64,000 bases of DNA from Escherichia coli (GCF_013315695.1 NZ_CP054353.1), one strand, 5' to 3'. Positions 12,760 to 53,495 are shown, numbered from the stretch's first letter. Notes: generated by a model not told the origin, from the sequence alone. Translations and numbers: made by a program.

Positions 12760-12806
12760 CGTCCTCTCCTTTAGGGACCAGACCTGCCGAAATCGGCAAA
12801 TCGTAA

Positions 12807-14108
12807 CTATTTAACGCGCGAGAAAAGTACCATCGATTCCAGATGTCCCGTGTGTGGGAACATATCCAGCATCGCCAGTCGCGCAATGGTATATCCTGCT
12901 TTTAATAACGCTTCGCTATCCCGAGCCAGCGTTGCAGGATTACAGGATACATAAACTATACGAATAGGTTCCAGTTTTATAATTTGCTGCATAACACCTG
13001 CGGCACCTGCTCGCGCCGGGTCCAGCAACACTTTATCGAAGCCGTTTTTCGCCCACGGCTGCTTTGTGACATCTTCTTCAAGATTTTCGTGATAAAACGT
13101 CACATTGTGTAAGCCATTAAGACGCGCATTCTGCTGGCCTTTTTCCACCAGCGCCGGAACACCTTCTACACCCACCACACTGGCAGCTTGTGTCGCCAAT
13201 GGCAGTGTAAAGTTGCCCATACCGCAGAACAGATCCAGTACGCGATCTTCAGGTTGTACATCCAGCCATTCCAACGCACGCGCTACCATTTTTTGGTTCA
13301 CACCCGCATTGACCTGAATAAAATCGCGCGGGCTAAAAGTTAAGCGCAACCCGTTTGAGTCATACCAGGGCATCTCACCAGAGACGGTTTCGAGTATCTC
13401 ACTATCGGGGGCGAGATACAGATCCAGTCCTTCAGAATGCGAAAAGCGTTCCAGTTTTTCGCGATCTGCCGAACTTAGCGGTGCGGTATGGCGCAAAATC
13501 ATCAGCGTGCCGCTGGTTGCCTGTACCAGTTCAACATGACCAAGATGGCGCATAGCTTGTAAGCTGCCCAGGCATGCCCTGACTTTGGGCAGCAATGCTT
13601 CAAGTTGGGGCACTAAAATGGGGCATTGTTTAACGTCGACAATGTCACTGGAGCCCGCTTTGCGAAACCCCATCTGAAGTTGCTGTGTTTTCGGTAAGTA
13701 GTTCAGACTTAAACGCGCGCGACGGCGATAGCCCCAGGGAACATCGGCGATCACTTCAGAGACTTCGTGTTTCATTAATCGGGCGAGTGCCGCACTTTTG
13801 CTTCGCTGCTGTAAATCCACACTGGCGTGTTGTTGCTGACAGCCGCCGCATACGCCAAAATGAGGGCAGCGTGGCGTTTCGCGTTCCGGGCTATCGCTTA
13901 ACCGGCGCACGACTTTAGCGCGGGCGTATTGTTTTTTATCTTCAGTAACAGTAACTTCCGCGTTTTCCTGTGGCAATAATCCAGGAATAAATAACGTTTT
14001 GCCGTTATGTCGCGCCACGCCCTGACCAAAAGAGTCGAGGTCATTGACTGAAACGGTTATGATCTGACGCGTCGTCGTGTGTCGTTTTGCAGAGTAGAAT
14101 TGCGCCAT
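12807..14108 (-). CDS. rlmD: 23S rRNA (uracil1939-C5)-methyltransferase
   Basis: 433-aa ORF with TRAM domain and Cys cluster ([11 protein letters not shown]) plus SAM-methyltransferase fold; divergent from barA. Confidence 0.9.
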
Positions 14109-19854: not shown

Positions 19855-21207
19855 TTATTGCCCCGCGACAGGTTTCAGCTCGATACGCTTGATATCGCCC
19901 ACCAGCACCAGGTAGCTCAGTACCGCGATTAAGGCATGAACACCAACATAAATCAGCGCCCCATTAAAGGAGCCAGTCGTGCCAACGATATAACCAATTG
20001 CGATTGGCGTGACGATGCCAGAAATGTTACCAAACATGTTGAACAGGCCACCGGAAAGACCGCTGATCTCTTTTGGCGCAGTATCAGCCATTACAGCCCA
20101 ACCCAGCGCCCCGATCCCCTTACCGAAGAAGGCCAGCGCCATAAAGCCGATGATCATCCACTCAACGTTGACGTAGTTGCAGAACACCATCACCATCGAC
20201 AGCAACATGCCCATTACGATCGGTGTTTTACGCGCAATGTTCAGCGATCCCGTGCGGCGCATCAGCCAGTCGGAAATAATCCCACCCAGCACACCGCCGA
20301 TAAAACCGCAAACCGCCGGAACGGAAGCCACAAAGCCCGCTTTCAGAATCGACATCCCACGCGCCTGCACCAGATAAACCGGAAACCAGGTAATGAAAAA
20401 GTAAGTCAGGGCGTTGATACAGTACTGACCGATATAAACGCCGATCATCATCCGTGACCCGAGCAGCTGTTTGATCTGCCCCCACTTCACGCTGAACGGC
20501 ACTTTAACTTTGGTGTTTTGCTGATCCATATTGATCAGCGCGCCACCCGCGGCGATGTACTCCAGCTCTTTCTGATTTACACCCGGATGTTGATTTGGCT
20601 CGTGGATGACTTTCAACCAGATAAAGCTGATGACAATGCCCAGACCGCCCATAAAGAAAAAGACGTGTGACCAGCCCACTTCATGCGTCAGCCAGCCCAT
20701 AATCGGCGCGAAGATCACCGTTGCGAAGTATTGAGCGGAGTTAAAAATCGACACCGCCGTTCCCCTTTCCTGCGCCGGAAACCAGGCCGCAACAATGCGA
20801 CTGTTGCCGGGGAAAGAGGGCGCTTCAGCAAGCCCGACCAGGAAGCGCAGCGTAAACAGGGCAACGATAATGCCGAATCCACTAAAGATATCGACGAAGC
20901 CTTGCAGCAAGGTAAACATCGACCAGATAAAGATCGACCAGAAGTAGACGCGTTTTGAACCAAAACGATCCAGCAACCAACCACCAGGGATCTGCCCGAT
21001 AACATAAGCCCATGAGAAAGCAGAGAACACATAGCCCATTCCCACAGGATCAAGGCCGATATCTTTGGCCATTTCCGAACCGGCGATAGAGAGCGTAGCG
21101 CGGTCGCCGTAGTTGAAGGATGTGACGATAAACAACATCACCACTATCCAGTAACGAGCATTCGTGCGTTTTTCCACACTGCTCGCAGCCTGACTTAAAG
21201 AACTCAT
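19855..21207 (-). CDS. gudP: MFS glucarate/galactarate transporter
   Basis: 450-aa polytopic membrane protein upstream of gudX/gudD, stop 1 nt from gudX start. Confidence 0.9.
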
Positions 21208-32196: not shown

Positions 32197-32844
32197 TTAC
32201 TCTTCAATCCGTAACCCGTAGGTTTTGAATTTCTCCAGCACTACGGCAATCTCTTCATCGCTCAGCACTGGCACCGGGTCCGTAATCGCCAGGGTCGTCA
32301 GGTAAAGTTGTGCCAGCACTTCAACTTCATGCGCCAGCCATAACGCTTTCTCCAGATTCGCCTCACAAGCGATAAGCCCATGATGTTGTAACAAAGTTGC
32401 CTTACGATTTTTGAGAGCCAGCGCAACATGTTCAGAAAGTTCGCGTGTTCCAAAGGTCGCATAAGGCGCGCAAGGAATAGAATTACCGCCAGCCGCCGCA
32501 ATCATGTAGTGAATCGCGGGGATCGGGCGGTTAAGAATGGAAACTGCCGTACAATGAACGGCATGATTGTGAACAACCGCGTTGGCATCCGGTCTGCTTT
32601 GATAGGCCGCCATATGGAAACGCCACTCGCTTGAGGGGAGCTTTCCTTCCTCATGTTTGCCGTTGCCATCAATAAAGACAATATGCGACTCCGTCAGTTT
32701 TTCATATGGAATACCTGTAGGCGTAATCAGCATCCCATCCTGATAACGTACACTGACGTTACCCGCTGTCCCCTGGTTCAGCCCCAGGCGAGTCATTTCC
32801 AGGCAAGTGTCAATAATCTGACGAGCAAGTTTATTTCGTTCCAT
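32197..32844 (-). CDS. fucA: L-fuculose-1-phosphate aldolase
   Basis: 215-aa class II aldolase ORF upstream of fucO. Confidence 0.93.
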   Translation of the reverse strand: MERNKLARQIIDTCLEMTRLGLNQGTAGNVSVRYQDGMLITPTGIPYEKLTESHIVFIDGNGKHEEGKLPSSEWRFHMAAYQSRPDANAVVHNHAVHCTAVSILNRPIPAIHYMIAAAGGNSIPCAPYATFGTRELSEHVALALKNRKATLLQHHGLIACEANLEKALWLAHEVEVLAQLYLTTLAITDPVPVLSDEEIAVVLEKFKTYGLRIEE

Positions 32845-33390
32845 TAGCTACCTCTCTCTGATTCAAAACAGGGCAATAATGTTGTTCCTTTCACACTATT
32901 GAATTAGCCGTTTAATTACCCACCATCTTCTTCCTGATTAACCAGAAAGAAATTCACAAGCTTATATTTTGTGACCTGGTTCAACTAATCACAGTAAATA
33001 ACTGCAATTTCTCTTTTTATAACCCCATTAAAAATGACCGCTCTTAAAAATATTTATCAAAACGGTCATTTTTATACTCCTCCCTGCCAGGAATGCCCGT
33101 TTTCGGCACAAACAATTAATACGGTCATCTGGTTTGTGTTTTTTATGATTTATTTTCTGAAACGGGCATGAAATTTCGATTATTAAAGTGATGGTAGTCA
33201 CATAAAGTCACCTTCCGGCTAATAAGTGTGACCGCCGTCATATTACAGAGCGTTTTTTATTTGAAAATGAATCCATGAGTTCATTTCAGACAGGCAAATA
33301 TTCACTGATATGAAGCCCGAACTCGCTGGTTTTGCACTTTTGAAAACATAACTGATTACGTGCTTAAGCTTCTGAACCTAAGAGGATGCT
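32845..33390. promoter_or_regulatory. divergent fucAO / fucPIKUR control region
   Basis: 546-bp AT-rich intergenic region between divergently oriented fucA and fucP; individual CRP/FucR sites not resolved by eye. Confidence 0.6.
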
Positions 33391-34707
33391 ATGGGAAACA
33401 CATCAATACAAACGCAGAGTTACCGTGCGGTAGATAAAGATGCAGGGCAAAGCAGAAGTTACATTATTCCATTCGCACTGCTGTGCTCACTGTTTTTTCT
33501 TTGGGCGGTAGCCAATAACCTTAACGACATTTTATTGCCTCAATTCCAGCAGGCTTTTACGCTGACAAATTTCCAGGCTGGCCTGATCCAATCGGCCTTT
33601 TACTTTGGTTATTTCATTATCCCAATCCCTGCCGGGATATTGATGAAAAAACTCAGTTATAAAGCAGGGATTATTACCGGATTGTTTTTATATGCCTTCG
33701 GCGCTGCATTATTCTGGCCCGCCGCAGAAATAATGAACTACACCTTGTTTTTAGTTGGCCTATTTATTATTGCAGCCGGATTAGGTTGTCTGGAAACTGC
33801 CGCAAACCCTTTTGTTACGGTATTAGGGCCGGAAAGCAGTGGTCACTTCCGCTTAAATCTTGCGCAAACATTTAACTCATTTGGCGCAATTATCGCGGTT
33901 GTCTTTGGGCAAAGTCTTATTTTGTCTAACGTGCCACATCAATCGCAAGACGTTCTCGATAAAATGTCTCCAGAGCAATTGAGTGCGTATAAACACAGCC
34001 TGGTATTATCGGTACAGACACCTTATATGATCATCGTGGCTATCGTGTTACTGGTCGCCCTGCTGATCATGCTGACGAAATTCCCGGCATTGCAGAGTGA
34101 TAATCACAGTGACGCCAAACAAGGATCGTTCTCCGCATCGCTTTCTCGCCTGGCGCGTATTCGCCACTGGCGCTGGGCAGTATTAGCGCAATTCTGCTAC
34201 GTTGGCGCACAAACGGCCTGCTGGAGCTATTTAATTCGCTACGCTGTAGAAGAAATTCCTAGTATGACAGCAGGCTTTGCCGCTAACTATTTAACCGGAA
34301 CCATGGTGTGCTTCTTTATTGGTCGTTTCACCGGTACCTGGCTCATCAGTCGCTTCGCGCCACACAAAGTCCTGGCAGCCTACGCATTAATCGCTATGGC
34401 ACTGTGCCTGATCTCAGCCTTCGCTGGCGGTCATGTGGGCTTAATAGCCCTGACTTTATGCAGTGCCTTTATGTCGATTCAGTACCCAACAATCTTCTCG
34501 CTGGGCATTAAGAATCTCGGCCAAGACACCAAATACGGTTCGTCCTTCATCGTTATGACCATTATTGGCGGCGGTATTGTCACTCCGGTCATGGGGTTTG
34601 TCAGTGACGCAGCGGGCAACATCCCCACTGCTGAACTGATCCCCGCACTCTGCTTCGCGGTCATCTTTATCTTTGCCCGTTTCCGTTCTCAAACGGCAAC
34701 TAACTGA
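33391..34707 (+). CDS. fucP: L-fucose:H+ symporter (MFS)
   Basis: 438-aa polytopic membrane protein; first gene of fucPIKUR. Confidence 0.93.
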   Translation: MGNTSIQTQSYRAVDKDAGQSRSYIIPFALLCSLFFLWAVANNLNDILLPQFQQAFTLTNFQAGLIQSAFYFGYFIIPIPAGILMKKLSYKAGIITGLFLYAFGAALFWPAAEIMNYTLFLVGLFIIAAGLGCLETAANPFVTVLGPESSGHFRLNLAQTFNSFGAIIAVVFGQSLILSNVPHQSQDVLDKMSPEQLSAYKHSLVLSVQTPYMIIVAIVLLVALLIMLTKFPALQSDNHSDAKQGSFSASLSRLARIRHWRWAVLAQFCYVGAQTACWSYLIRYAVEEIPSMTAGFAANYLTGTMVCFFIGRFTGTWLISRFAPHKVLAAYALIAMALCLISAFAGGHVGLIALTLCSAFMSIQYPTIFSLGIKNLGQDTKYGSSFIVMTIIGGGIVTPVMGFVSDAAGNIPTAELIPALCFAVIFIFARFRSQTATN

Positions 34708-40805: not shown

Positions 40806-41723
40806 TTATTGTTCATAACGAAAGCGGAATTTTTCTTGTTCAGCAGCGGCTTTCGCCAGGATCCATTGGCGAAAGGCGGCTATTTTACCCAGTTCTGCCT
40901 GGCTGTCATGACAAACCAGATAAAAAGCGTTTTTACTGACCAGAACATCATTAAACGGGCAAACAAGACGTCCGGCCTCGATTTCAGATTGCGCCATCAC
41001 GTTATTTGCCAGCGCCACTCCCTGCCCGTGGATAGCCGCTTGCAGCACCATGGCGCTATGGCTAAAAATTGGCCCTTGCTGAACGTTGATATGATTTAAC
41101 CCCAACTGTCGGGTATATGTCTGCCAGTCACGGCGTGACGCATCATGTAATAACGTATGTTTAGCCAGATCTTCCGGGGTCTTCAAGGGTTTTTCGCCAG
41201 TCAGCAGTAGCGGCGAGCACACCGGCAATAAATATTCGGCGTACAGTTTTTCCACCCGTAGCCCCGGCCAGTTGCCCCGACCATAAAATATCGCCACATC
41301 AACATCATCCGCCAGCTTATCTTCCTGACGATCAACCGCCTGGATTCGAACGTCAATTCCCGGATAAGCTGAATTAAAGCTGGAAAGTCGCGGAACCAAC
41401 CAATGAATGGCGAAACTGGGGAGTAAACTGACCGTCAACGCCCCCTTGGCGCTACGGGCCTGGAGTTTACGCGTCGCTTCGGTTAATTGCGAAAATATCT
41501 CTTTGATATCGAGGAAATAGCTTTGCCCTTCCTCGGTCAGCAGGAGTGAACGATTACGGCGGCGGAACAGTTTTAGCCCCAAAAAATCCTCAAGAGACTT
41601 GATTTGATGACTTACTGCGGCCTGGGTCACAAAAAGCTCTTCTGCTGCGCGAGTGAAACTTAAATGGCGTGCTGCGGCATCAAAAACTCGTAAGGCATTT
41701 AGCGGTGGTAATCGTTTAGACAT
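40806..41723 (-). CDS. gcvA: LysR-family regulator of the glycine cleavage system
   Basis: 305-aa ORF with N-terminal LysR HTH (FDAAARHLSFTRAAEELFVTQAAVSHQIK); divergent from gcvB. Confidence 0.95.
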   Translation of the reverse strand: MSKRLPPLNALRVFDAAARHLSFTRAAEELFVTQAAVSHQIKSLEDFLGLKLFRRRNRSLLLTEEGQSYFLDIKEIFSQLTEATRKLQARSAKGALTVSLLPSFAIHWLVPRLSSFNSAYPGIDVRIQAVDRQEDKLADDVDVAIFYGRGNWPGLRVEKLYAEYLLPVCSPLLLTGEKPLKTPEDLAKHTLLHDASRRDWQTYTRQLGLNHINVQQGPIFSHSAMVLQAAIHGQGVALANNVMAQSEIEAGRLVCPFNDVLVSKNAFYLVCHDSQAELGKIAAFRQWILAKAAAEQEKFRFRYEQ

Positions 41724-41851
41724 GGCTTTTAAACTTTGATGTTAAATGAATTTAACAATTAGATCACACTGTGTAACCTATTAGTTTTTTTAATCTGAGC
41801 CATTATAAATTGTCCGTTGAGCTTCTACCAGCAAATACCTATAGTGGCGGC

Positions 41852-42057
41852 ACTTCCTGAGCCGGAACGAAAAGTTTTATCGGAATGCGTGTTCTGGTGA
41901 ACTTTTGGCTTACGGTTGTGATGTTGTGTTGTTGTGTTTGCAATTGGTCTGCGATTCAGACCATGGTAGCAAAGCTACCTTTTTTCACTTCCTGTACATT
42001 TACCCTGTCTGTCCATAGTGATTAATGTAGCACCGCCTAATTGCGGTGCTTTTTTTT
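41852..42057 (+). ncRNA. gcvB: GcvB small RNA (Hfq-dependent)
   Basis: Starts ACTTCCTGAGCCGGAACG a few bp after a TATAGT -10; contains GU-rich block GTTGTGATGTTGTGTTGTTGTGTTTG; ends in GCACCGCCTAATTGCGGTGC + T8 terminator. Confidence 0.92.
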
Positions 42058-42073
42058 ACCTTGCGATCGCGAA

Positions 42074-42301
42074 TTACTGATCCAGTTCGACCATCTCTTT
42101 CACGTCAGTACGGTTGATCTGCTGTTTGTTGCCATTAGCGTCTTTATACGAAATCATACCGGTATCGTTATCAGTCTGTGGTTTGCCGTCAGAGACGATG
42201 GTACGTCCGTCATTGGTGTGCATCACATAGTTCGAACCGGAACAGGCGCTCAGGGCAAAAGTCAGCATACAGGCAGAAATAATTGCGGCAGTCTTTTTCA
42301 T
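42074..42301 (-). CDS. ygdI: small lipoprotein YgdI (DUF903)
   Basis: 75-aa ORF with lipoprotein signal and lipobox (LSAC|SGS); convergent with gcvB. Confidence 0.85.
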
Positions 42302-42492
42302 CATCTTCTCCTTAAAGCGATTAATAAATCTTAATAGTATTGATTAACAGGCTAAAATTAACGCCTAACACTATTCAGCATATGTTACTGACGCAGCTTC
42401 GCCAGGATATCCAGATAATTCTGATGGTTAGCACTCTCCTTGTATCAAAGTGAATTTTGCGTCACGATCGGTGCATCAAGCCGAGGAGTACC

Positions 42493-43698
42493 ATGAACGT
42501 TTTTAATCCCGCGCAGTTTCGCGCCCAGTTTCCCGCGCTACAGGATGCGGGCGTCTATCTCGACAGCGCCGCGACCGCGCTTAAACCTGAAGCCGTGGTT
42601 GAAGCCACCCGACAGTTTTATAGCCTGAGCGCCGGAAACGTCCATCGCAGCCAGTTTGCCGAAGCCCAACGCCTGACCGCGCGTTACGAAGCTGCGCGGG
42701 AAAAAGTGGCACAATTACTGAATGCATCGGATGACAAAAATATCGTCTGGACGCGCGGCACCACTGAATCCATCAACATGGTGGCGCAATGCTATGCCCG
42801 TCCGCGTCTGCAACCGGGCGATGAAATTATTGTCAGTGTGGCAGAACACCACGCCAACCTCGTCCCCTGGCTGATGGTCGCCCAACAAACGGGGGCCAAA
42901 GTGGTGAAATTGCCGCTTAATGCGCAGCGACTGCCGGATGTCGATTTGTTGCCAGAACTGATTACTCCCCGTAGTCGGATTCTGGCGTTGGGCCAGATGT
43001 CGAACGTCACTGGCGGTTGCCCGGATCTGGCGCGAGCGATTACCTTTGCTCATTCAGCCGGGATGGTGGTGATGGTTGATGGTGCTCAGGGGGCGGTGCA
43101 TTTCCCCGCAGATGTTCAGCAACTGGATATCGATTTCTATGCTTTCTCTGGTCACAAACTGTATGGCCCGACGGGTATCGGCGTGCTGTATGGCAAATCA
43201 GAACTGCTGGAAGCGATGTCACCCTGGCTGGGTGGCGGCAAAATGATTCACGAAGTGAGTTTTGACGGCTTCACGACTCAATCTGCGCCGTGGAAACTGG
43301 AAGCCGGAACGCCAAATGTCGCTGGTGCTATAGGATTAAGCGCGGCGCTGGAATGGCTGGCAGATTACGATATCAACCAGGCCGAAAGCTGGAGCCGTAG
43401 CTTAGCAACGCTTGCAGAAGAAGCGCTGGCAAAACGTCCTGGCTTCCGCTCATTTCGCTGCCAGGATTCCAGCCTGCTGGCCTTTGATTTTGCTGGAGTT
43501 CATCACAGCGATATGGTGACGCTGCTGGCGGAGTACGGTATTGCCCTGCGGGCCGGGCAGCATTGCGCTCAGCCGCTACTGGCAGAATTAGGCGTAACCG
43601 GCACACTGCGCGCCTCTTTTGCGCCATATAATACAAAGAGTGATGTGGATGCGCTGGTGAATGCCGTTGACCGCGCGCTGGAATTATTGGTGGATTAA
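42493..43698 (+). CDS. csdA: cysteine desulfurase / sulfinate desulfinase
   Basis: Class V aminotransferase fold; track ORF starts at 42457, probable true start [16 protein letters not shown] at 42493 (401 aa). Confidence 0.92.
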
Positions 43699-46172: not shown

Positions 46173-46339
46173 TGTTCTCTTCTTCAGGTTAAAAAATAAG
46201 GCGCAACGAAGATAACAAACCGCCGCGTTTAATGAAATGAGCAGCCTCTCCCTGACGCAAATTTTGCACAAAAAATAGGCTTTAGTGATTTGTTTTTGCT
46301 CAAAATCATACCAAATCCGTGATCTGGGTAAAAAAAAGG

Positions 46340-46367
46340 TTGCATGAAAACGCGAGCGGAGTATAGT
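46340..46367 (+). promoter_or_regulatory. sigma70 promoter of the tRNA-fMet cluster
   Basis: TTGCAT, 16-bp spacer, TATAGT, followed by GC-rich discriminator GCGCATCC typical of stringently controlled stable-RNA promoters; about 13 bp upstream of the first tRNA. Confidence 0.7.
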
Positions 46368-46380
46368 GCGCATCCACGGA

Positions 46381-46457
<77 letters not shown>

Positions 46458-46490
46458 ATTAAAATTTGATGAAGTAAAGCAGTACGGTGA

Positions 46491-46567
<77 letters not shown>

Positions 46568-46600
46568 ATCAAAATTTAATGAAGTAAAGTAGTACGGTGA

Positions 46601-46677
<77 letters not shown>

Positions 46678-46694
46678 ACACTTATGATGCTGAT

Positions 46695-46729
46695 AAACCG
46701 CAATGTGTTTCACAGATTGCGGTTTTTTT
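46695..46729 (+). terminator. rho-independent terminator of the tRNA-fMet operon
   Basis: aaaccgcaat...attgcggttt hairpin followed by T-run. Confidence 0.8.
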
Positions 46730-46755
46730 GTATTTAAAATCTTTGTTCGCTGAAC

Positions 46756-47712
46756 TCACAACACGTTTTTTATCTCCCTTCCTGCGAAGTAATCAATTAT
46801 CGACTGGGCAACGTGTATCCCGGTTTGCTGGTATGACTCAACGGTGGCTGCCGCGATATGCGGCGTTGTAATGATATTTTTGGCATGTAGCAGTGGGCTA
46901 AATTGCGCCAACGGTTCAGAGCTAAACACATCCAGCGCCGCAAACACATTTCGTTCTTCAATCACCTGAAGTAAAGCGCCCTCATCCAGCAACTTTCCCC
47001 TTGCGGCATTGATGATCAGAGCACCATTGCGCATCATCGACAAATATTTATGACTAATGAAGTTCTCCAGCTCCGGAGAAAATGGCAAAAGAACGATGAT
47101 GACATGAGACTGCATAAAGATATCTTCAATTGATACGAACTGAACTCCATCTTTGCCTGCGGCCTGGAAATCGGGTTGTTTGTCAAAAGCTAAAAGCTCA
47201 ACATCAAAACCAGATAACCTTTTCGCCAGTGTTTTGCCAATATTGCCGTAGCCAAGCAGGCCAATACGTTTACCTTGTAACTCGCAGCCATGCGACTCGC
47301 CCCAATAACCATTTTGCATCGCATGATAGCTACCGGGGATATTTCTCATGCTCGCGAAGATAAGTCCAATGATAAATTCCGCAACCGCATTTGAATTAAT
47401 CCCAACCGCATTATTGACAACAATACCGGATTGCTGTGCCGCACGAAGATCAATATTGTCTATCCCCGTCCCGAATCTCGATATTATTTTCACACCAGAC
47501 AGCAATGATAGCGTGTCCGCCTGATAACAATCTTTTCCGGCGATGACCGCGCAAATAGATTCTCGTAATGCAGTGGATTCTGATTTAAGCAGATGCTCCA
47601 CATTATTCTTAATAATAAGATTAAAATTATTCTCTCTTAGCAACTTGCTGGCGGAAACACAGCGTGCTGAAAAGCTGGGGACGGTGACCAGAACATTTTT
47701 CATAGCTGACAC
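46756..47712 (-). CDS. D-isomer-specific 2-hydroxyacid dehydrogenase family protein (accessory island)
   Basis: 318-aa ORF with NAD-binding GxGxxG (GLLGYGNIG) and catalytic-domain layout of SerA/GhrA-type dehydrogenases; AT-rich codon usage. Confidence 0.75.
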   Translation of the reverse strand: MSAMKNVLVTVPSFSARCVSASKLLRENNFNLIIKNNVEHLLKSESTALRESICAVIAGKDCYQADTLSLLSGVKIISRFGTGIDNIDLRAAQQSGIVVNNAVGINSNAVAEFIIGLIFASMRNIPGSYHAMQNGYWGESHGCELQGKRIGLLGYGNIGKTLAKRLSGFDVELLAFDKQPDFQAAGKDGVQFVSIEDIFMQSHVIIVLLPFSPELENFISHKYLSMMRNGALIINAARGKLLDEGALLQVIEERNVFAALDVFSSEPLAQFSPLLHAKNIITTPHIAAATVESYQQTGIHVAQSIIDYFAGREIKNVL

Positions 47713-47773
47713 TCACTTCAAAGAACGCCACCCCAAAAGATGGCGTGACCGGTTACTGTTTTATATTCTAAAA

Positions 47774-48370
47774 TTATGAGTTTGCTTTAATACCGAGCGC
47801 ACCTCCTGGATGATATAAGCCGAAATCAGCACGAGTAAACTTTTTCAATTCGGAGAGCGCAAGCGCCACCGCATCACCAACAACCAGAACGACTGTTGAT
47901 GAGCATGACGGCGCTAAACCTAAATTATCCGCCTCACTTTTTACGGGAATTTCAACGGATAAATCACAACTTATCGCAAGCGATGAGTGATGACTGCGTG
48001 TAAAAGAGATCAAATAATTACCCATTTTTTTCAGACTAGGCAGTGTCGCCAGGATTTCCGCCGTCTCACCACTGTTTGAAATAAGAATAACAACATCGTC
48101 TTTCGCCACCATTCCAAGGTCGCCGTGTACCGCTTCCGTACCGTGAACAAAAAACGAGGGAGTTCCGGTACTGGCAAAAGTTGCTGCGAGTTTTCTGGCA
48201 ATAATACCGGACTTACCAACACCAATAAAAACAACTTTTCCCTGACAAGATTGTAATACTTTAATTAAATTTGCGACCTCCGAAAGGGGGGAATCAATAA
48301 CTTCTTCAACTGCTTTATATTCGTTACGCATAAAATGTTTAATGAGATGGATAAGATCCGTGCTGTTCAT
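47774..48370 (-). CDS. SIS-domain sugar-phosphate isomerase (KpsF/GutQ-like SIS domain without CBS domains)
   Basis: 198-aa ORF with SIS motifs GVGKSG...SNSGET; closest in memory to arabinose-5-P isomerase or hexulose-6-P isomerase SIS domains. Confidence 0.7.
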   Translation of the reverse strand: MNSTDLIHLIKHFMRNEYKAVEEVIDSPLSEVANLIKVLQSCQGKVVFIGVGKSGIIARKLAATFASTGTPSFFVHGTEAVHGDLGMVAKDDVVILISNSGETAEILATLPSLKKMGNYLISFTRSHHSSLAISCDLSVEIPVKSEADNLGLAPSCSSTVVLVVGDAVALALSELKKFTRADFGLYHPGGALGIKANS

Positions 48371-48372
48371 TT

Positions 48373-49554
48373 TTATTTTCCTTGATTAATATTTTTAATT
48401 ACACTCGCAAGACGCGTAAGCCCCATATATAATTTTTCTCGACCGCAGGCCAGGTTCAGACGAAGGTAGCCCTCCCCCTCCGTTCCATAGACATGCCCCG
48501 CCATAATGCCCACTTTGCCTTCATGAATTAATCGACTGTAAAATTCATCAAAAGGATAACCAATAGCAGAACAATCTATCCAGGAAAAATAGCAACCATC
48601 AGCTGGCCTTACGATCAATTCTGGAATATTTTCATTCAGATACTGCTGGGTGAATTGAATGTTAGAGGCAATATGTACCTTTAATGACTTTAACCATCCC
48701 TCACATTCGTTATAGGCAATAATAGTTGCAATTATATTCAGTACTGATGGGGAGTTTACAAAATCGCGATACCTCGATATCGTTCTGAACTTATGATTAA
48801 AATTATCGTCAGTTGAAATCATATACGATCCTGTTAGTGCAGGAACATTAAATGTTTTCGATATCGAGTTAAATACTACTACTTTTTCTTTTTTTATTTT
48901 AAGCGCGGATGTAAAGCTACGATTAAAAACAAAATCACTATGGATTTCATCTGAACATAACCAGACATTATGCCTTGTACAGCTTGCAGCGATTTTATGC
49001 AGTTCTTCTTCCGACCAGACTGTTCCTGTCGGGTTATGAGGATTACATAATAACACCATCTTTGCGCCTTTAATCTTAAGTTCAAAATCTTGCCAGTTGA
49101 TAGCGTAGCCCCCCTCATTTTTTATAATCAAAGAGGCTGTCAGAATATTTCGCTCGCTATGTTTAATTACATCAAAAAATGCATTATAGACAGGTGTAAA
49201 AACGAGAATATTATCACCATGTGATGTCAATAACTCTATTGCTTTTGCAATAGAGTACATCACACTGGGGCTATAGGTGATCCATTCTGGTTTGATTTCA
49301 GTTTTATATTGTTGATGATACCAGTTTACTATCGCATTCAGATAGTCATCATGCTGCCAACGGCTGTACCCTAAAATCGGGTGTTCCAGACGTTTTCTTA
49401 ATGCCCTGATGATAGCGTCCGGTATCGGAAGATCCATATCTGAAATAGAGAATGGTAATACATCTTTTACACCAAATCTGTCCTCGCAAAAGTCCCATTG
49501 GGTACAATATGTTCCTTTGCGGGAAACAGGAGTATTAAAAACATCCATCAGCAT
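48373..49554 (-). CDS. PLP-dependent C-S lyase / aminotransferase, MalY/PatB family
   Basis: 393-aa ORF that aligns by eye along its length with E. coli MalY (TQWD, LPF.ISDMD, LLC.P.NPTG, SDEIH, SK.FN.PAL). Confidence 0.75.
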   Translation of the reverse strand: MLMDVFNTPVSRKGTYCTQWDFCEDRFGVKDVLPFSISDMDLPIPDAIIRALRKRLEHPILGYSRWQHDDYLNAIVNWYHQQYKTEIKPEWITYSPSVMYSIAKAIELLTSHGDNILVFTPVYNAFFDVIKHSERNILTASLIIKNEGGYAINWQDFELKIKGAKMVLLCNPHNPTGTVWSEEELHKIAASCTRHNVWLCSDEIHSDFVFNRSFTSALKIKKEKVVVFNSISKTFNVPALTGSYMISTDDNFNHKFRTISRYRDFVNSPSVLNIIATIIAYNECEGWLKSLKVHIASNIQFTQQYLNENIPELIVRPADGCYFSWIDCSAIGYPFDEFYSRLIHEGKVGIMAGHVYGTEGEGYLRLNLACGREKLYMGLTRLASVIKNINQGK

Positions 49555-51128
49555 ATCCCCATGTAGTTATCCATATCCCGACGCAAGGCGATGACTTTAG
49601 TACCGATAATGACTTGTAGGGTATTTTGATCAAGTTTAACAACCGCAATCCCGCCAGCTCTTTTTATTGCAACTTCGTCAATCAATCCCATATCTGCGAT
49701 TGTTAAACGTAAACGAGTTACGCAATTATCCAGTGACTTAATATTCTCTTTACCACCAAGTGCCTTAACCATCTGCTCCGCCGCTTGCAGCTCTGATTTA
49801 TCAGGAGTTGGGATATCCGCTATAGCCGTATCTTCGTGAACGTTCAGCGTGACAGGACTGGACTCTTCACGGCCTACGGTCATCAGGTTAAATTTAAGAA
49901 TGGTCCAACGGAACACAAAGTAATAAATGAAGAAATAGGCCACTTCGACACACACCGCGATCGGCCAACCTGTTCTTGTGCCACGCAATACGCCAAAGCT
50001 AATAAATTGAATCAGATCGCCAGTAAATCCCATCTTCACGCCCATATATGGCAGAACCATGTTAGCGAATCCATTCATAAAGGCATGGAAGACAAACAGC
50101 AGTGGACTGACAAATAAGAACAGAAACTCAATCGGTTCGCTGACGCCGCCAATAATCACCGTAAGCACCCCGGAAATAAGCAATGCTTTGATAGCCTTTC
50201 TGTTTTGAGCATGAGCAGTGCGATACATCGCCAGCGCGGCACCAGCCAGACCATACTGAATCATCAGTTTGCCCTGCTCCATTTTCCCCGCCAAATCCAG
50301 CGGAATGACCGCATTCTCTTTAACGTATGCCATAAACATGTTCAGGGTGCCGTAATATTCTTCGCCGCCAATCACAGCCGAACCGCCGATTGGCGTAAAG
50401 CGGAAAACTGACGTCACCAGATGGTTTAAGCCAAAAGGAATCGTCACGCGTTCGGCAACTGCATAGAAGAAATAACCAACAGGACCGGAAGTTGATATCC
50501 AGTGGCCAATGAGCATGAAGAGATTGAAAAACGGCGGCCAGATAAAAGGAATGATCAGACCAAATCCACTCATCACAATCAGTGTAATGATAGGCACCAG
50601 ACGTGGGCCGCTATAAAAACCTAATGATTCAGGAATGCGTAAATTAACGATCTTTTTATACATGCTGGCGACTAATAACCCAGCAACAATTCCCCCTAAC
50701 ACGCTGGTATTGTAGGACTGGATCCCCAGAATGATGGTTTGCCCATGTGTCGACATTTGGTCAGCAGCGACCAATAAGTCGTGCTGTTTAAGATAAAAGT
50801 TCGTTCCCAGATGCATCGCCATAAAACCAATTAAGCCAGAAAAAGCGCCATAGGCTTTATCCTCTTTCTCTTTTAATAATCCTAAGGGAATTGCTATCGC
50901 AAACAATACAGGTAAATTAACAAAGGCAAACAAACCAAGGCTAACAATGAAATCAAGTATGGTTTTAATTATTGGAATAGTCAGAAATGGAATTAACTTT
51001 GCCATATCATCACTGGCTAAACCACTTCCCAGCCCTAGCATCATGCCACATACACTTAGCAGAGCAATGGGATACATAAATGCCTTCCCCAGGCTCTGAA
51101 AAAAACTCCAGGCTTTCTTTTGTTTCAT
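49548..51128 (-). CDS. PTS glucose-family EIICB component, MalX-like
   Basis: 526-aa polytopic ORF with C-terminal EIIB phosphocysteine motif (NCVTRLRL); strong resemblance to MalX/PtsG EIICB. Confidence 0.8.
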   Translation of the reverse strand: MKQKKAWSFFQSLGKAFMYPIALLSVCGMMLGLGSGLASDDMAKLIPFLTIPIIKTILDFIVSLGLFAFVNLPVLFAIAIPLGLLKEKEDKAYGAFSGLIGFMAMHLGTNFYLKQHDLLVAADQMSTHGQTIILGIQSYNTSVLGGIVAGLLVASMYKKIVNLRIPESLGFYSGPRLVPIITLIVMSGFGLIIPFIWPPFFNLFMLIGHWISTSGPVGYFFYAVAERVTIPFGLNHLVTSVFRFTPIGGSAVIGGEEYYGTLNMFMAYVKENAVIPLDLAGKMEQGKLMIQYGLAGAALAMYRTAHAQNRKAIKALLISGVLTVIIGGVSEPIEFLFLFVSPLLFVFHAFMNGFANMVLPYMGVKMGFTGDLIQFISFGVLRGTRTGWPIAVCVEVAYFFIYYFVFRWTILKFNLMTVGREESSPVTLNVHEDTAIADIPTPDKSELQAAEQMVKALGGKENIKSLDNCVTRLRLTIADMGLIDEVAIKRAGGIAVVKLDQNTLQVIIGTKVIALRRDMDNYMGIC

Positions 51129-51159
51129 GTGGGTTATCTCATATAAATGTTATATATAA

Positions 51160-51984
51160 TTAGTCCATTAATACTTTGGTACGAATAGAGAGATATAGTT
51201 TTTCTTCTAAAATTAATTCATATTTAAAAGTGGCATACAGATACCGTTCAATTTCATGAATTGCGCGCTGTAAAAGGATGTCCTTTTCAAGAAACTGTTC
51301 ATAGATATCACCAATATCTTTCTGTTTTATTTTTTCATTGCATAACACGCGACTTGAAAAATATTTAAGGTGTATCATGAACCTGGAATAATTAAATGAA
51401 CTTCTGTCCACCTTTCTGTTATAAACAACTTCAATAAGCCCCGTGATTATTTGCGACAACTCAATAATCCGTACTGATTCATAATCAACTGAATTTTCAT
51501 AATTATTTAAAATATGCAATGCTATAAAACCAATCTCATCATCAGGAAGTTGAACGCTGAATTGCTCATTAATGATAGTTAATGCATCGCGACTTATCGC
51601 ATACTCTGCTTTGTACAACGCTTTGATTTCATCAAGGAAAACATTATTAATTTGTATGCCTGAAGCGACTCTGGATATTGCATTCGAAATGTGATCAGCA
51701 AGAATCAATAGTAGCGATGGATTGAGATTTTTTTCGAGATTGTTCTCCGCATATTGCACTATTTTTTCGGCAACAAAAACATACTCAATATCCACATGTT
51801 CAATCAATTTGTAGAGTTTATTTTTTTGTTCATTTCTGACATAAAAAATCCGGTTAGCCGGATGCTCAGGGACCGACATTCCATATTTTTTGTTGTAACC
51901 GACGCCAGGCCCAGAAATGATAACCTCCTGTCCATTCATCGATGCCTGTACACAATTATTGTTCATGACTTTTTCGATGATCAT
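51160..51984 (-). CDS. BglG/LicT-family transcription antiterminator (CAT RNA-binding domain + PRDs)
   Basis: N-terminus MIIEKVMNNNCVQASMNGQEVIISGPGVGY matches the co-antiterminator domain signature; track ORF starts 19 codons upstream (52041) inside the leader terminator, and GGAG precedes the ATG at 51984. Confidence 0.7.
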   Translation of the reverse strand: MIIEKVMNNNCVQASMNGQEVIISGPGVGYNKKYGMSVPEHPANRIFYVRNEQKNKLYKLIEHVDIEYVFVAEKIVQYAENNLEKNLNPSLLLILADHISNAISRVASGIQINNVFLDEIKALYKAEYAISRDALTIINEQFSVQLPDDEIGFIALHILNNYENSVDYESVRIIELSQIITGLIEVVYNRKVDRSSFNYSRFMIHLKYFSSRVLCNEKIKQKDIGDIYEQFLEKDILLQRAIHEIERYLYATFKYELILEEKLYLSIRTKVLMD

Positions 51985-51995
51985 TCCATGGCTCC

Positions 51996-52068
51996 AAAAA
52001 AAAAGGCAAGGCACGTCAGAAGTAATAACTACTTCAAACATTGCCTTGCCTGATTTAACAGTTACAAG
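51996..52068 (-). promoter_or_regulatory. RAT (ribonucleic antiterminator) overlapping a rho-independent terminator in the antiterminator leader
   Basis: Minus strand CTTGTAACTGTTAAATCAGGCAAG resembles the BglG/LicT RAT consensus (GGATTGTTACTG...CAGGCAAAACC); its 3' half forms the 5' arm of hairpin GGCAAGG...CCTTGCC followed by T9. Confidence 0.6.
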
Positions 52069-52241
52069 ATGATTAACTAATGCGTATACATTACACGGAA
52101 TTGTGCTTAATTAAAGAGATGGTCGGCTTATTTTTCAAGCCGACATTCAAATATCCGACATCAGTCACAAAACCAGCGTCTAATATTCAGGTAAATGTTA
52201 TCTATTCAACGAAATATAAATTCATTGAATAAATAAAAACA

Positions 52242-53495
52242 TTATCCCCTTCTCGCCAGCGTCGCCCCATCGGCAAAATACGCTTTAATTCCCGCAAGAA
52301 TAGACTCCGCAACTTCCTGCTGGAAAGTCGCCGTTTTCAGTTTACGCTCTTCCTCAACGTTACTGATAAACGCCGTTTCGACCAGAATGGAGGGAATATC
52401 TGGTGCCTTTAGTACGGCAAACCCGGCCTGTTCAACTTGATTTTTATGCAGCTTGTTGATTTTACCGAGCTTATTCAGCACCGCTTTACCAAACTTCAGG
52501 CTGTCAGCAATGGTCAGCGACTGCACCATATCGAACATGGTGTGGTCGACATAGCGGTCACCGCTTTTGCTTACGCCACCAATCAAGTCCGAGGCGTTCT
52601 GGGTTTGTGCCAGATATTTTGCCGCAGTACTGGTTGCGCCTTTGGTTGAGAGCGCAAACACCGAGGAACCGCTCGGCTGGCGACTGGTAAAGGCGTCGGC
52701 ATGGATAGAGACAAACAAGTCAGCACGCTGTTTCTGGGCTTTTGCTACGCGCACTTGCAACGGAATGAAGATGTCTTCATTGCGCGTCATGTACACCTTC
52801 ATATTGCCCTCTTTCTCGATCAGAGAGCGCAGACGGCGAGCTATTTGCAATACCACGTCTTTTTCGCGTGTTTTGTATTTCCCCACCGCACCGGAGTCTT
52901 CGCCACCGTGGCCAGGGTCAAGCATAATGACAATCGGACGATCCCGCCCAGCTTTACCCGGTTGTGGACCACTTTGTGCTGGCGGCACCTGCTTTTCGAG
53001 GTCGCCTTTGTTGTAATCCTCCAGCAGCGCCAGCAGCGGGTCCTGCATGTCCTGAGCATTGGCAGGATAGAGATCCATCACCAGACGCTCTTTAAACCCG
53101 GCGACCGGAGCAAGGGCAAACAGCTGCGGTTTTACGTTTTGCTTTAACTCAAAAACCATCCGCACGGTTTGCGGGTCAAACTGCCCGACGCGCGCCGACT
53201 TGATGAACGGGTCATCAGCACGAATTTGTGCCGCCATCCCCTTGAGCACTGAGTTCAGGTTTACATCTTCGATATCCACCACCACGCGTTCAGGGTTACT
53301 CAACGCGAACTGCTTATATTTCAGCTGACGATTAGATTCTACCGTCACACGGGTGTAGCTGGACGCAGGCCAGACGCGCACCGCCACGACCTGGCTGACC
53401 GCAGCCAGACTGACCTGACTTACGCTCAATAGCCACATGGCACCCGCGCCTTGCAGTAAACGACGACGGCTGATTGCAGTGTTGGATCCTGACAT
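52242..53495 (-). CDS. amiC: N-acetylmuramoyl-L-alanine amidase AmiC (Tat-exported)
   Basis: Amidase_3 domain; N-terminal twin-arginine signal ([11 protein letters not shown]); track ORF is 5 codons longer, probable start MSGSNTAI. Confidence 0.9.

What the first reader, a model, noticed from the sequence alone, without database searches (positions are those of the whole stretch)
46730..52241. About 5.5 kb AT-rich accessory island between the tRNA-fMet cluster and amiC
Five co-directional minus-strand genes (BglG-type antiterminator, PTS EIICB, PLP C-S lyase, SIS isomerase, D-2-hydroxyacid dehydrogenase) lie between the tRNA terminator and amiC. As I recall, K-12 has the tRNA cluster directly next to amiC. 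The block is visibly more AT-rich than its neighbours, and tRNA loci are classic integration hotspots. No integrase, direct repeats or IS remnants were seen, so it may be an old or decayed insertion.
Basis: partly seen in the sequence, partly recalled or inferred. Interest (0 to 1): 0.7.

Follow-up and report, generated by a model that had tools for sequence, protein, structure and literature searches.

The report
Known sugar-uptake islet beside tRNA-fMet
The AT-rich 5.6 kb block between the tRNA-fMet genes and amiC is a real, horizontally acquired five-gene sugar-uptake operon found in about a third of E. coli strains, but it was already described as genes c3405-c3410 of the uropathogen island PAI-metV, so it is ordinary.

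Summary
Five intact minus-strand genes (LicT/BglG-type antiterminator, MalX-like PTS EIICB, PatB/MalY C-S lyase, SIS-only sugar-phosphate isomerase, D-2-hydroxyacid dehydrogenase) fill window 46678-52241. GC is 40.5% against 51.1 ± 1.3% for equal-sized windows elsewhere (z = -8).

The block replaces about 70 bp of the K-12-type site. It starts right after the tRNA CCA end and stops at the amiC stop codon. There is no integrase, IS element or tRNA direct repeat.

Junction-specific searches of 5426 complete E. coli genomes:
- 3501 are empty (K-12, EDL933).
- 596 carry the module alone, as here.
- 1088 carry a type VI secretion (T6SS) island plus the module (CFT073, ST131).
- 249 carry the T6SS island only.

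Salmonella shares the K-12-type empty site, so the module is an insertion, not a K-12 deletion. It corresponds to CFT073 c3405-c3410, the amiC-proximal end of PAI-CFT073-metV. Its SIS protein has a solved structure (5UQI).

Added here: a single RAT/terminator leader; the module lies outside the T6SS island's tRNA repeat; the same cassette sits beside tRNA-Asp in Citrobacter and at the metV-amiC site in Atlantibacter; its closest outside relatives are Clostridioides-type operons. The substrate is still unknown. Verdict: already known, low interest.

The parts
46381..46677 (+). Three tandem tRNA-fMet (CAT) genes (metZ/W/V equivalents). The 3' CCA end of the third copy (46677) is the left junction of the island.
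   Evidence: ARAGORN; Rfam; junction alignments.
46678..46755 (+). Island-type sequence downstream of the tRNA. It contains an intrinsic terminator (stem aaccgcaat...attgcggtt plus T-run, about 46696-46729) that differs from the K-12/Salmonella terminator (acaccctaacgggtgttttttt). A similar terminator follows metV in Atlantibacter and flanks the T6SS island in ST131.
   Evidence: Sequence; alignments.
46756..47703 (-). D-isomer 2-hydroxyacid dehydrogenase family protein, by gene order c3405 (RefSeq name 'phosphoglycerate dehydrogenase'). It is the last gene of the operon and belongs to a clade seen only in this cassette.
   Evidence: NCBIfam (PGDH 213 bits, far below the equivalog cut-off); PDB homologues; homologue search (identity drops from 68-76% in Citrobacter to 48% or less); RefSeq annotation.
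47774..48370 (-). SIS-domain-only KpsF/GutQ-like sugar-phosphate isomerase, 198 aa, with no CBS domains. By gene order it corresponds to CFT073 c3406.
   Evidence: NCBIfam (matches only the SIS part of KdsD/GutQ); PDB 5UQI/5VHU, 198 aa, E 9e-123; c3406 named 'phosphosugar isomerase' in PMC4032248.
48373..49548 (-). PatB/MalY-family PLP-dependent C-S lyase.
   Evidence: NCBIfam TIGR04350 366 bits, above the cut-off of 340; PDB MalY 1D2F E 2e-87; the Lys of the SISK motif is invariant in alignment A3.
49548..51128 (-). Glucose-family PTS EIICB permease, MalX-like, with the EIIB motif NCVTRLR. No EIIA gene is present in the block.
   Evidence: NCBIfam (MalX model 537 bits, below the cut-off of 632); translation; 62-78% identical to the EIICB of the four-gene operons in Firmicutes and Enterobacter sp. 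ENT03.
51160..51984 (-). BglG/SacY/LicT-family transcription antiterminator (CAT RNA-binding domain plus two PRDs). It is the first gene of the operon.
   Evidence: NCBIfam LicT, full-length match; Pfam CAT_RBD and PRD on orthologues; His98, His157 and His205 are invariant when aligned with K-12 BglG.
51996..52070 (-). Leader regulatory element. A RAT-like sequence AUCUUGUAACUGUUAAAUCAGGCAAGGCA (52070-52042) overlaps the 5' arm of an intrinsic terminator (stem 52051-52004, U9 to 51996). A GGAG ribosome-binding site and the ATG at 51984 follow.
   Evidence: Sequence; fold -30.1 kcal/mol, z = -4.1; the RAT is identical in E. coli and Citrobacter, with one substitution in Atlantibacter; stem cells 91% paired against 34-54% for slid controls, two compensatory pairs; the same regular expression finds only this site in the window and exactly the two known bgl RATs in K-12.
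52071..52241 (-). Upstream part of the leader and presumed promoter region. It includes a hairpin (52144-52122) about 100 nt after the amiC stop and ends at the right junction of the island.
   Evidence: alignment; comparison with the empty site.
52242..53495 (-). amiC, a core gene that forms the right flank. Its stop codon is TAA here and TGA in empty-site genomes.

Best explanation
The block is a horizontally acquired, strain-variable metabolic islet. It is a five-gene PTS sugar-utilisation operon and corresponds to c3405-c3410, the amiC-proximal end of PAI-CFT073-metV. Here it is present without the T6SS island that accompanies it in CFT073 and ST131.

How it most likely works (inferred except where marked):
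1. Transcription starts in the 257-nt leader and stops at a strong intrinsic terminator.
2. When the substrate is being transported, the EIICB no longer phosphorylates PRD1 of the antiterminator.
3. The antiterminator then binds the RAT that overlaps the terminator's 5' arm. All five genes are read through from this single control point.
4. The EIICB, probably fed by the chromosomal EIIA-Glc (Crr) because the block has no EIIA gene, imports and phosphorylates an unidentified glucoside-like compound.
5. The PatB-type PLP lyase, the SIS isomerase and the 2-hydroxyacid dehydrogenase then convert it into central intermediates. From my own memory of Mosberg et al. 2011, the SIS isomerase interconverts arabinose-5-phosphate and ribulose-5-phosphate in vitro.

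Shown here: the gene families, the intact ORFs, the RAT/terminator architecture and its conservation.

Origin. The empty site is ancestral. The cassette entered Enterobacteriaceae from a low-GC, Clostridia-like source. It now sits in tRNA hot spots: metV in Escherichia and Atlantibacter, aspV in Citrobacter. It carries no mobility genes of its own. It probably spreads within Escherichia by homologous recombination through the conserved tRNA and amiC flanks.
For: Presence and absence. The module is in 1689 of 5426 genomes, single copy, on the chromosome in all but one match. The empty junction is in 3501 genomes. The direct tRNA-module junction is in 596, the T6SS-module junction in 1088 and the T6SS-amiC junction in 249.

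Identity with the known island. CFT073 has metV x3, a T6SS island, the same five genes, then amiC. PAI-CFT073-metV is c3385-c3410 (PMC6315130). c3405-c3410 is described as a PTS cluster inside it (PMC2831201). BEN2908 region GR19 lists the same five ORFs (PMC12928451).

Polarity. Salmonella has amiC, tRNA-fMet and mltA with the K-12-type terminator and no module.

Composition..

Regulation.. Homologous Clostridioides and Terrisporobacter operons carry canonical RAT-terminators at the equivalent position.

Foreign origin.
- Antiterminator-EIICB-lyase-SIS(-EIIA) operons occur in C. difficile, Terrisporobacter, Clostridium, Enterococcus termitis, Massilicoli and Solobacterium. Their EIICB is 62-71% identical and their lyase 43-51%.
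- E. coli's own MalX and MalY are only 41% and 36% identical (PMC12928451).
- The antiterminator scores best against the LicT and GlcT models rather than BglG.

Two tRNA sites. In Citrobacter the cassette's 3' end lies about 55 nt from tRNA-Asp, next to dnaQ. In Atlantibacter it lies between amiC and three tRNA-fMet genes.

Separation from the T6SS island. The T6SS island ends with ...cctcttgactgt followed by GGCCCCCGCAACCA, a copy of the tRNA 3' end. After that comes either the module (ST131) or K-12-type sequence (UTAK-6).
Against: - The substrate and pathway are unknown. Nothing here shows transport, induction or catalysis.
- The claims about API activity and attenuation of a c3405-10 deletion in mouse urinary-tract infection rest on my memory of Mosberg 2011 and Lloyd 2009. 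Those papers are not held in the library; only the Mosberg title was seen.
- The direction of inter-phylum transfer is inferred from taxonomic breadth and GC content, not from a rooted phylogeny.
- Enterobacter sp. ENT03 has a GC-normal four-gene version.
- Junctions that fall at the edges of conserved genes are expected for any replaced intergenic segment. They do not prove homologous-recombination transfer.
- Use of Crr as the EIIA is an assumption.
Confidence: 0.85

Rival explanations
1. The module-only arrangement in this window is secondary. An ancestor carried the full PAI-metV (T6SS island plus PTS module) and lost the T6SS island by recombination between the direct repeats that flank it.
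For: In ST131 the T6SS island is flanked by a 41-nt exact direct repeat, GGCCCCCGCAACCAATTTATTAGAATGCTGACAAACCGCAA, which would allow precise deletion. The window's module is as close to the B2 module (97.4%) as the flanks are.
Against: - The 27 nt after the tRNA in the window (ACACTTATGATGCTGATAAACCGCAA) differ from the ST131 repeat at several positions.
- Module-only genomes span very different lineages: O111:H8, the divergent Escherichia E69 and the genus Atlantibacter.
- T6SS-only genomes exist, so the two modules assort independently.
- The order of events in this particular lineage cannot be settled from the data collected.
Confidence: 0.15
2. The five genes are ancestral to E. coli at this position, and K-12-like strains lost them by deletion. 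On this view it is not an insertion.
For: The divergence of the module tracks that of the flanks for B2 strains (97.4 against 96.7-98.0%) and for the divergent Escherichia E69 (90.3 against 92.4%). This argues for long residence at the site. Atlantibacter has the cassette at the same site.
Against: - Empty E. coli sites carry a specific 73-bp segment whose tRNA terminator is shared with Salmonella. That segment cannot arise by deleting the module.
- GC is 10 points below the flanks.
- Among the species representatives returned by the genome scan, only E69 among Escherichia has it.
- Citrobacter has it at a different tRNA.
- The O111 allele is 8% diverged while its flanks are 2.5% diverged.
Confidence: 0.05
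3. The block is a decaying, non-functional remnant (a cryptic operon) with no current role.
For: The EIIC gene is frameshifted in O111:H8 strain 7-32 9A. An IS1 transposase is annotated inside the match in strain CAVp367. Fused SIS-lyase ORFs occur in the 87% allele. E. coli's bgl operon is a precedent for a cryptic operon.
Against: - All five ORFs are intact here and in CFT073, ST131 and E69, with catalytic and phosphorylation motifs conserved.
- The leader RAT is identical in E. coli and Citrobacter, with one substitution in Atlantibacter.
- 1686 genomes keep at least 80% of the block.
- The C. difficile homologues are strongly co-regulated in vivo (PMC4026244).
- From memory, a c3405-10 deletion lowers UPEC fitness in mice (Lloyd 2009; not verified here).
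Confidence: 0.1

Closest known systems
c3405-c3410 of PAI-CFT073-metV (uropathogenic E. coli CFT073); also 'GR 19' of APEC BEN2908
   Same: Same five genes in the same order and orientation, next to amiC and downstream of metV. Nucleotide identity is 97.4% and the leader is 100% identical. The island is described as a putative PTS sugar operon (PMC2831201, PMC12928451).
   Different: In CFT073, ST131 and BEN2908 a roughly 27-40 kb T6SS island sits between metV and the operon. Here the operon abuts the tRNA directly, as in 596 of 5426 genomes. The published island definition lumps two separable modules together.
Clostridioides difficile CD630_30270-30310 (antiterminator, malX, malY, phosphosugar isomerase, EIIA-Glc)
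   Same: Same order for the first four genes: antiterminator, EIICB, PatB lyase, SIS. EIICB is 69% identical, the lyase 49-51% and SIS 52%. Both use RAT/terminator control.
   Different: C. difficile ends with an EIIA-Glc gene where this block has the dehydrogenase. Its RAT-terminators lie between the antiterminator and EIICB genes, in four tandem 104-nt units. Here a single unit lies upstream of the antiterminator gene. The antiterminator is only 36% identical.
E. coli K-12 malX-malY (malI regulon)
   Same: A glucose-family EIICB is paired with a PatB/MalY C-S lyase and no EIIA gene. The natural substrate is likewise unclear.
   Different: Identity is only about 41% (MalX) and 36% (MalY) (PMC12928451). 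The K-12 genes are regulated by the MalI repressor, not by antitermination. They have no SIS or dehydrogenase partner and are core rather than accessory genes.
E. coli bgl operon (bglG-bglF-bglB) and B. subtilis LicT/SacY/GlcT systems
   Same: A CAT-PRD1-PRD2 antiterminator is encoded with its PTS permease. A RAT overlaps an intrinsic terminator in the leader before the antiterminator gene, as upstream of bglG. The PRD histidines are conserved.
   Different: There is one RAT/terminator here and two in bgl. Identity to BglG is 25%. The permease belongs to a different family (Glc/Mal, not Bgl). The catabolic genes differ: no phospho-beta-glucosidase.

Membership tests
tRNA-associated genomic island (integrase-mediated) | Lies immediately at the 3' end of a tRNA gene | tested here: met
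   The island starts at 46678, the base after the CCA end of the third tRNA-fMet.
tRNA-associated genomic island (integrase-mediated) | Variable presence among strains and atypical base composition | tested here: met
   Present in 1689 of 5426 genomes. GC is 40.5% against 51.1%, z = -8.2.
tRNA-associated genomic island (integrase-mediated) | Integrase or other mobility gene inside the island | tested here: not met
   Five metabolic or regulatory genes fill the block, and the gaps are at most 257 nt. The literature lists 0 integrases and 0 transposases for the whole PAI-metV (PMC6315130).
tRNA-associated genomic island (integrase-mediated) | Direct repeat of the tRNA 3' end at the distal boundary | tested here: not met
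   There are no extra copies of the tRNA 3' end in the window, allowing up to 3 mismatches, and no flanking repeats. The neighbouring T6SS island in other strains does have such a repeat, and the module lies outside it.
PAI-CFT073-metV, c3405-c3410 operon | Same genes, order and chromosomal position (between metV and amiC, adjacent to amiC) | tested here: met
   CFT073 locus L092. Gene-by-gene nucleotide identity is 95-98% and the leader is 100% identical.
PAI-CFT073-metV, c3405-c3410 operon | T6SS gene cluster (c3385-c3404) present as part of the island | tested here: not met
   No T6SS genes lie between the tRNA and the operon in the window. The window belongs to the module-only class of 596 genomes.
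BglG/SacY-type antitermination system | Protein with an N-terminal CAT RNA-binding domain and two PRDs carrying phosphorylatable histidines | tested here: met
   Full-length LicT model match, residues 1-268. Pfam CAT_RBD and PRD are recorded on orthologues. His98, His157 and His205 align with the invariant histidines of BglG. The fourth position is Arg here, Asn in BglG and His in the clostridial proteins.
BglG/SacY-type antitermination system | RAT sequence overlapping the 5' arm of an intrinsic terminator in the leader of the regulated operon | tested here: met
   The RAT at 52070-52042 overlaps the terminator at 52051-51996. A motif search finds only this site in the 64 kb window and exactly the two known bgl RATs in K-12. 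Conservation and compensatory changes are shown.
BglG/SacY-type antitermination system | Substrate-dependent antitermination controlled by the cognate EII | not testable with these tools
   This needs reporter fusions, in vitro RNA binding and phosphorylation assays.
PTS maltose/glucose EIICB (MalX equivalog) | Score above the curated family cut-off | tested here: not met
   TIGR02004 scores 537 bits against a cut-off of 632, and PRK10110 scores 525 against 665. It is MalX-like but not a MalX equivalog. The EIIC and EIIB domains and the Cys motif NCVTRLR are present.
PatB/MalY C-S lyase | Score above the curated cut-off, with the PLP-binding lysine present | tested here: met
   TIGR04350 scores 366.5 bits against a cut-off of 340. 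The Lys of the SISK motif is invariant. MalY structure 1D2F matches at E 2e-87.
KpsF/GutQ/KdsD arabinose-5-phosphate isomerase | SIS domain followed by a tandem CBS pair | tested here: not met
   The protein is 198 aa and matches only positions 37-201 of the 328-position KdsD model, so it has no CBS region. It scores 191.9 bits against the subfamily cut-off of 203.7. It matches PDB 5UQI, also 198 aa. API activity of c3406 is recalled from memory (Mosberg 2011) and was not verified here.
D-3-phosphoglycerate dehydrogenase (SerA) | Score above the equivalog cut-off | tested here: not met
   TIGR01327 scores 213 bits against a cut-off of 454. The protein belongs to the D-2-hydroxyacid dehydrogenase superfamily, but the RefSeq name is not supported at equivalog level. 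Its clade is restricted to this cassette.

The most novel reading that the evidence does not exclude
The cassette is a Clostridia-derived operon for a still unidentified host- or diet-derived conjugated sugar, suggested by the conserved pairing of a glucose-family permease with a cysteine-conjugate-type PLP lyase and a pentose-phosphate isomerase. It has been captured without mobility genes at two different tRNA hot spots: metV in Escherichia and Atlantibacter, aspV in Citrobacter. In Escherichia it persists as an ancient presence/absence polymorphism moved around by flank recombination. Identifying the substrate would explain the reported urinary-tract fitness effect and possibly the long-unknown role of MalX/MalY-type pairs.
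Probability: 0.3. Interest if true: 0.5.

Novelty: already known. Interest (0 to 1): 0.22.

Why it matters
As a genome feature it is a textbook accessory islet at a known tRNA hot spot and has been described since 2007-2011. It therefore does not change any picture.

Three things are of residual interest:
- Its substrate is still unknown, although the literature (recalled from memory, not verified here) links it to UPEC fitness.
- 'PAI-metV' is shown to be a composite of a repeat-bounded T6SS island and an older, independent PTS module.
- The cassette illustrates how a Gram-positive-style, antitermination-controlled operon can become established in Enterobacteriaceae at more than one tRNA site.

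Tried and rejected
- Rfam scan of 46300-52500 at permissive threshold: only the three tRNAs were found, with no curated family for the leader.
- The consensus promoter/terminator scan missed the main leader terminator because its loop is long, and gave no more hits than shuffled sequence.
- Search for a second copy of the tRNA 3' end, and for flanking repeats: nothing meaningful.
- Lloyd et al. 2009 and Mosberg et al. 2011 are not held in the library. Only the title of the Mosberg paper could be confirmed, from reference lists. Their experimental claims are therefore marked as recalled from memory.
- Searched for a substrate clue in papers on malX/malY and C. difficile. This gave co-regulation in vivo but no substrate.
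- AmiC neighbourhoods in Kluyvera and Klebsiella could not serve as outgroups, because cob/pdu genes follow amiC there.
- Strain HS-02 has a 4.1 kb unannotated stretch at this site with 27% GC and about 70% gapped identity. I judged it a probable assembly artefact or a wreck and did not use it.
- Considered and rejected that the low-GC patches at 32.5-34 kb and 41.5-42.5 kb are further islands. They are the fucP-fucA and ygdI-gcvA intergenic regions of core genes.

Full report
**1. What is in the sequence.**
Three tandem tRNA-fMet genes lie at 46381-46677 on the + strand. amiC lies at 52242-53495 on the - strand. Between them are five co-directional minus-strand ORFs, annotated identically in a 100%-identical RefSeq genome, strain MSB1_4I. 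NCBIfam assigns them as follows:
- a BglG/LicT-family antiterminator (51160-51984);
- a MalX-like glucose-family PTS EIICB (49548-51128);
- a PatB/MalY C-S lyase (48373-49548), which scores above the curated cut-off;
- a SIS-only KpsF/GutQ-like isomerase of 198 aa (47774-48370);
- a D-2-hydroxyacid dehydrogenase family protein (46756-47703).

All five are intact. The block is 40.5% GC, against 51.1 ± 1.3% for equal-sized windows elsewhere in the 64 kb (z = -8.2). GC3 is 0.34-0.46, against 0.56-0.59 in the neighbouring genes.

**2. Exact junctions.**
I compared the window with an empty site (strain 130, locus L002).
- Empty genomes have 73 bp between the tRNA CCA end and the amiC stop. That segment contains a tRNA terminator (acaccctaacgggtgttttttt) and a second hairpin.
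- In the window this segment is replaced by 5,564 bp (46678-52241).
- The replacement begins at the first base after the tRNA. It brings its own tRNA terminator (about 46696-46729).
- It ends at the amiC stop codon, which is TAA here and TGA in empty sites.
- There is no further copy of the tRNA 3' end in the window. No flanking repeats were found. The non-coding gaps are too short (257 nt or less) to hide integrase or IS remnants.

**3. Distribution in E. coli.**
I ran junction-specific searches against 5426 complete genomes.
- Empty tRNA-amiC junction: 3501 genomes, including K-12 MG1655 and O157:H7 EDL933.
- Module present: 1689 genomes, single copy, on the chromosome in all but one match.
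- Module directly after the tRNA, as in the window: 596.
- A T6SS island between the tRNA and the module: 1088 (ST131 loci L011, L010 and L003; CFT073).
- A T6SS island plus a MucR-family gene directly next to amiC, with no module: 249.

**4. It is a known entity.**
- CFT073 has metV x3, then a T6SS cluster, then the same five genes, then amiC.
- PAI-CFT073-metV is defined as c3385-c3410, associated with tRNA metV, with no integrase and no transposase (PMC6315130).
- c3405-c3410 is singled out as a 'PTS system, maltose/glucose specific' cluster. It was retained in all four UPEC genomes examined, and in E2348 and SMS-3-5 (PMC2831201).
- c3406 is annotated as a phosphosugar isomerase (PMC4032248).
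[quoted passage not shown] 2011) exists. Only its title could be seen, in reference lists.
- The SIS protein matches PDB 5UQI/5VHU over its full 198 residues (E 9e-123).
- A 2026 genome paper on APEC BEN2908 lists the same five ORFs as uncharacterised features of region 'GR 19, tRNA-Met..amiC' (PMC12928451).
- From memory only: Lloyd et al. 2009 reported that deleting c3405-10 reduces CFT073 fitness in mouse urinary-tract infection. Mosberg et al. showed API activity for c3406 and that c3406 alone is dispensable.

**5. Insertion, not deletion.**
Salmonella enterica has the order recD-argA-amiC, one tRNA-fMet, mltA-tcdA, with no module. Its tRNA terminator (acacccttacgggtgttttttt) is homologous to that of the K-12-type empty site. 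The empty state is therefore ancestral, and it cannot be produced by deleting the module.

The insertion is nevertheless old.
- Against B2 strains the module is 97.4% identical, like the flanks (96.7-98.0%).
- Against the divergent Escherichia genome E69 the module is 90.3% identical and amiC 92.4%.
- The O111:H8 (B1) allele is 91.7% identical while its flanks are 97.4-97.5%. Module alleles have therefore also moved between lineages.

Both states look like a long-standing polymorphism shuffled by recombination. Junctions at the edges of the highly conserved tRNA and amiC fit flank-mediated homologous exchange but do not prove it.

**6. Relation to the T6SS island.**
- In ST131 the T6SS island is bounded by a 41-nt exact direct repeat. 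It consists of the last 14 nt of the tRNA, GGCCCCCGCAACCA, plus 27 nt downstream. The module lies beyond the right-hand copy.
- In UTAK-6 the same T6SS right end (...cctcttgactgt + GGCCCCCGCAACCA) is followed directly by K-12-type empty-site sequence.

'PAI-metV' is therefore a composite of a repeat-bounded T6SS island and an independent PTS module next to amiC. Whether this window's lineage never had the T6SS island or lost it through the repeats cannot be decided. The window's post-tRNA sequence differs from the ST131 repeat at several positions, and module-only states occur in very different lineages. Both points favour 'never had it' or an old loss.

**7. Outside E. coli.**
A scan of one genome per species was combined with tblastn synteny mapping.
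- The five-gene cassette is found in Atlantibacter hermannii at the same site: amiC, cassette, three tRNA-fMet genes, mltA.
- It is found in several Citrobacter genomes at a different site. There its dehydrogenase end lies about 55 nt from tRNA-Asp, next to dnaQ-rnhA, which is the aspV hot spot.
- In both settings the 3' end of the operon faces the 3' end of a tRNA.
- A four-gene version (antiterminator, EIICB, lyase, SIS, usually followed by EIIA-Glc) occurs in C. difficile (CD630_30270-30310), Terrisporobacter, Clostridium, Enterococcus termitis, Massilicoli and Solobacterium. It also occurs, GC-normalised, in Enterobacter sp. ENT03.
- EIICB identity to these four-gene operons is 62-78%. Identity to E. 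coli's own MalX is 41%.
- The dehydrogenase has no close relative outside the cassette: identity drops from 68-76% to 48% or less.

Three things point to an origin in low-GC Firmicutes: the broad Firmicutes distribution, the low GC, and the best matches to the LicT and GlcT models. On this reading the EIIA gene was replaced by a dehydrogenase in Enterobacteriaceae. This is an inference, not a rooted phylogeny.

**8. Regulation.**
On the minus strand the 257-nt leader contains AUCUUGUAACUGUUAAAUCAGGCAAGGCA (52070-52042). This overlaps the 5' arm of a strong terminator (stem 52051-52004, then U9; -30.1 kcal/mol, z = -4.1). A GGAG ribosome-binding site and the ATG at 51984 follow.
- A regular expression for the RAT core finds this one site in the whole window. 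It finds exactly the two known RATs of the K-12 bgl operon.
- It also finds canonical RAT-terminators in the Clostridioides and Terrisporobacter homologues.
- The RAT is identical in E. coli and Citrobacter, with a single substitution in Atlantibacter.
- The terminator stem keeps 91% of its cells paired, against 34-54% for slid controls. Two pairs change on both sides, for example G-C in E. coli and A-U in Citrobacter.
- The antiterminator keeps the three histidines that align with the invariant ones of BglG.
- Only 31 nt separate the antiterminator and EIICB genes. One RAT/terminator therefore probably gates the whole operon.

This matches the canonical BglG/SacY model as described in PMC9981650. 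The functional steps (phosphorylation by the EIICB, RNA binding, use of Crr as EIIA) are inferred.

**9. Function.**
The substrate remains unknown. Shown:
- the permease is of the glucose/maltose family;
- the lyase is a bona fide PatB-family enzyme;
- the isomerase is a SIS-only KpsF relative;
- the dehydrogenase belongs to the D-2-hydroxyacid superfamily but to no named equivalog.

The C. difficile homologues are strongly co-regulated during infection (PMC4026244). In Terrisporobacter the operon is followed by transketolase and phosphomutase genes, which fits a pentose-phosphate output. Any specific substrate would be speculation.

**10. Verdict.**
Four details are added here that I did not find in the papers consulted:
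- the exact junctions and a census of the four site states;
- the demonstration that the module lies outside the T6SS island's tRNA repeats;
- the RAT/terminator leader;
- the occurrence of the same cassette at two tRNA hot spots, with clostridial relatives.

Interest is low.

Noticed in passing
L007 5974-6392 (C. difficile; also L019 and L020): Between the antiterminator and EIICB genes of the homologous C. difficile operon there are four tandem 104-nt units (three in strain CD160). Each unit holds a canonical RAT plus an intrinsic terminator. A serial array of antitermination checkpoints is unusual.
   Followed up: partly
L011 about 8041-8081 and L003 about 20002-20042 (ST131); L098 about 6914-6927 (UTAK-6): The T6SS island at metV is bounded by a direct repeat of the tRNA 3' end: a 14-nt core, 41 nt exact in ST131. 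It occurs both with the PTS module (1088 genomes) and without it (249 genomes, where a MucR-family regulator gene lies next to amiC).
   Followed up: yes
L004, L013, L023 (Citrobacter spp.), about 7560-12930: The same five-gene cassette sits at the aspV hot spot in Citrobacter: yafV, a gene hitting LTXXQ (PF07813), the cassette, tRNA-Asp, dnaQ. This is not the metV site. Its 3' end faces the tRNA 3' end just as in E. coli.
   Followed up: partly
L093 7250-8816 (E. coli O111:H8 strain 7-32 9A); hit H10 (strain CAVp367): Signs of decay in some lineages. The EIIC gene is annotated as frameshifted in the O111:H8 strain. An IS1 transposase is annotated within the module in CAVp367.
   Followed up: no
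Proteins P0002-P0009: In the roughly 87%-identity allele of the lyase, several E. coli and Shigella records encode 550-592 aa proteins that combine SIS and aminotransferase domains. This suggests a fusion, or a fusion produced by annotation, of the adjacent lyase and SIS genes. In the window these two genes are separated by only 2 nt.
   Followed up: no
L099 5938-10049 (E. coli strain HS-02): The metV-amiC interval holds 4.1 kb with no annotated gene, 27% GC and only about 70% gapped identity to the module, while the flanks are normal. It is either a heavily degraded copy or an assembly artefact.
   Followed up: partly
window 46381-46677; L011 7867-8053; L094 6373-6449: The number of tandem tRNA-fMet genes at this locus varies: three in the window, CFT073 and O111, two in the ST131 genome examined, and one in the Salmonella contig.
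   Followed up: no
L095, L096 (Kluyvera, Klebsiella): In these genera amiC is followed by cobalamin or propanediol-type genes instead of the tRNA-fMet/mltA region. The amiC-proximal side is therefore a rearrangement or insertion point in other Enterobacteriaceae too.
   Followed up: no
window about 32500-34000 and 41500-42500: These are two other low-GC patches (0.41-0.43). They map to the fucP-fucA divergent regulatory region and the ygdI-gcvA intergenic region of core genes. They are not islands.
   Followed up: yes
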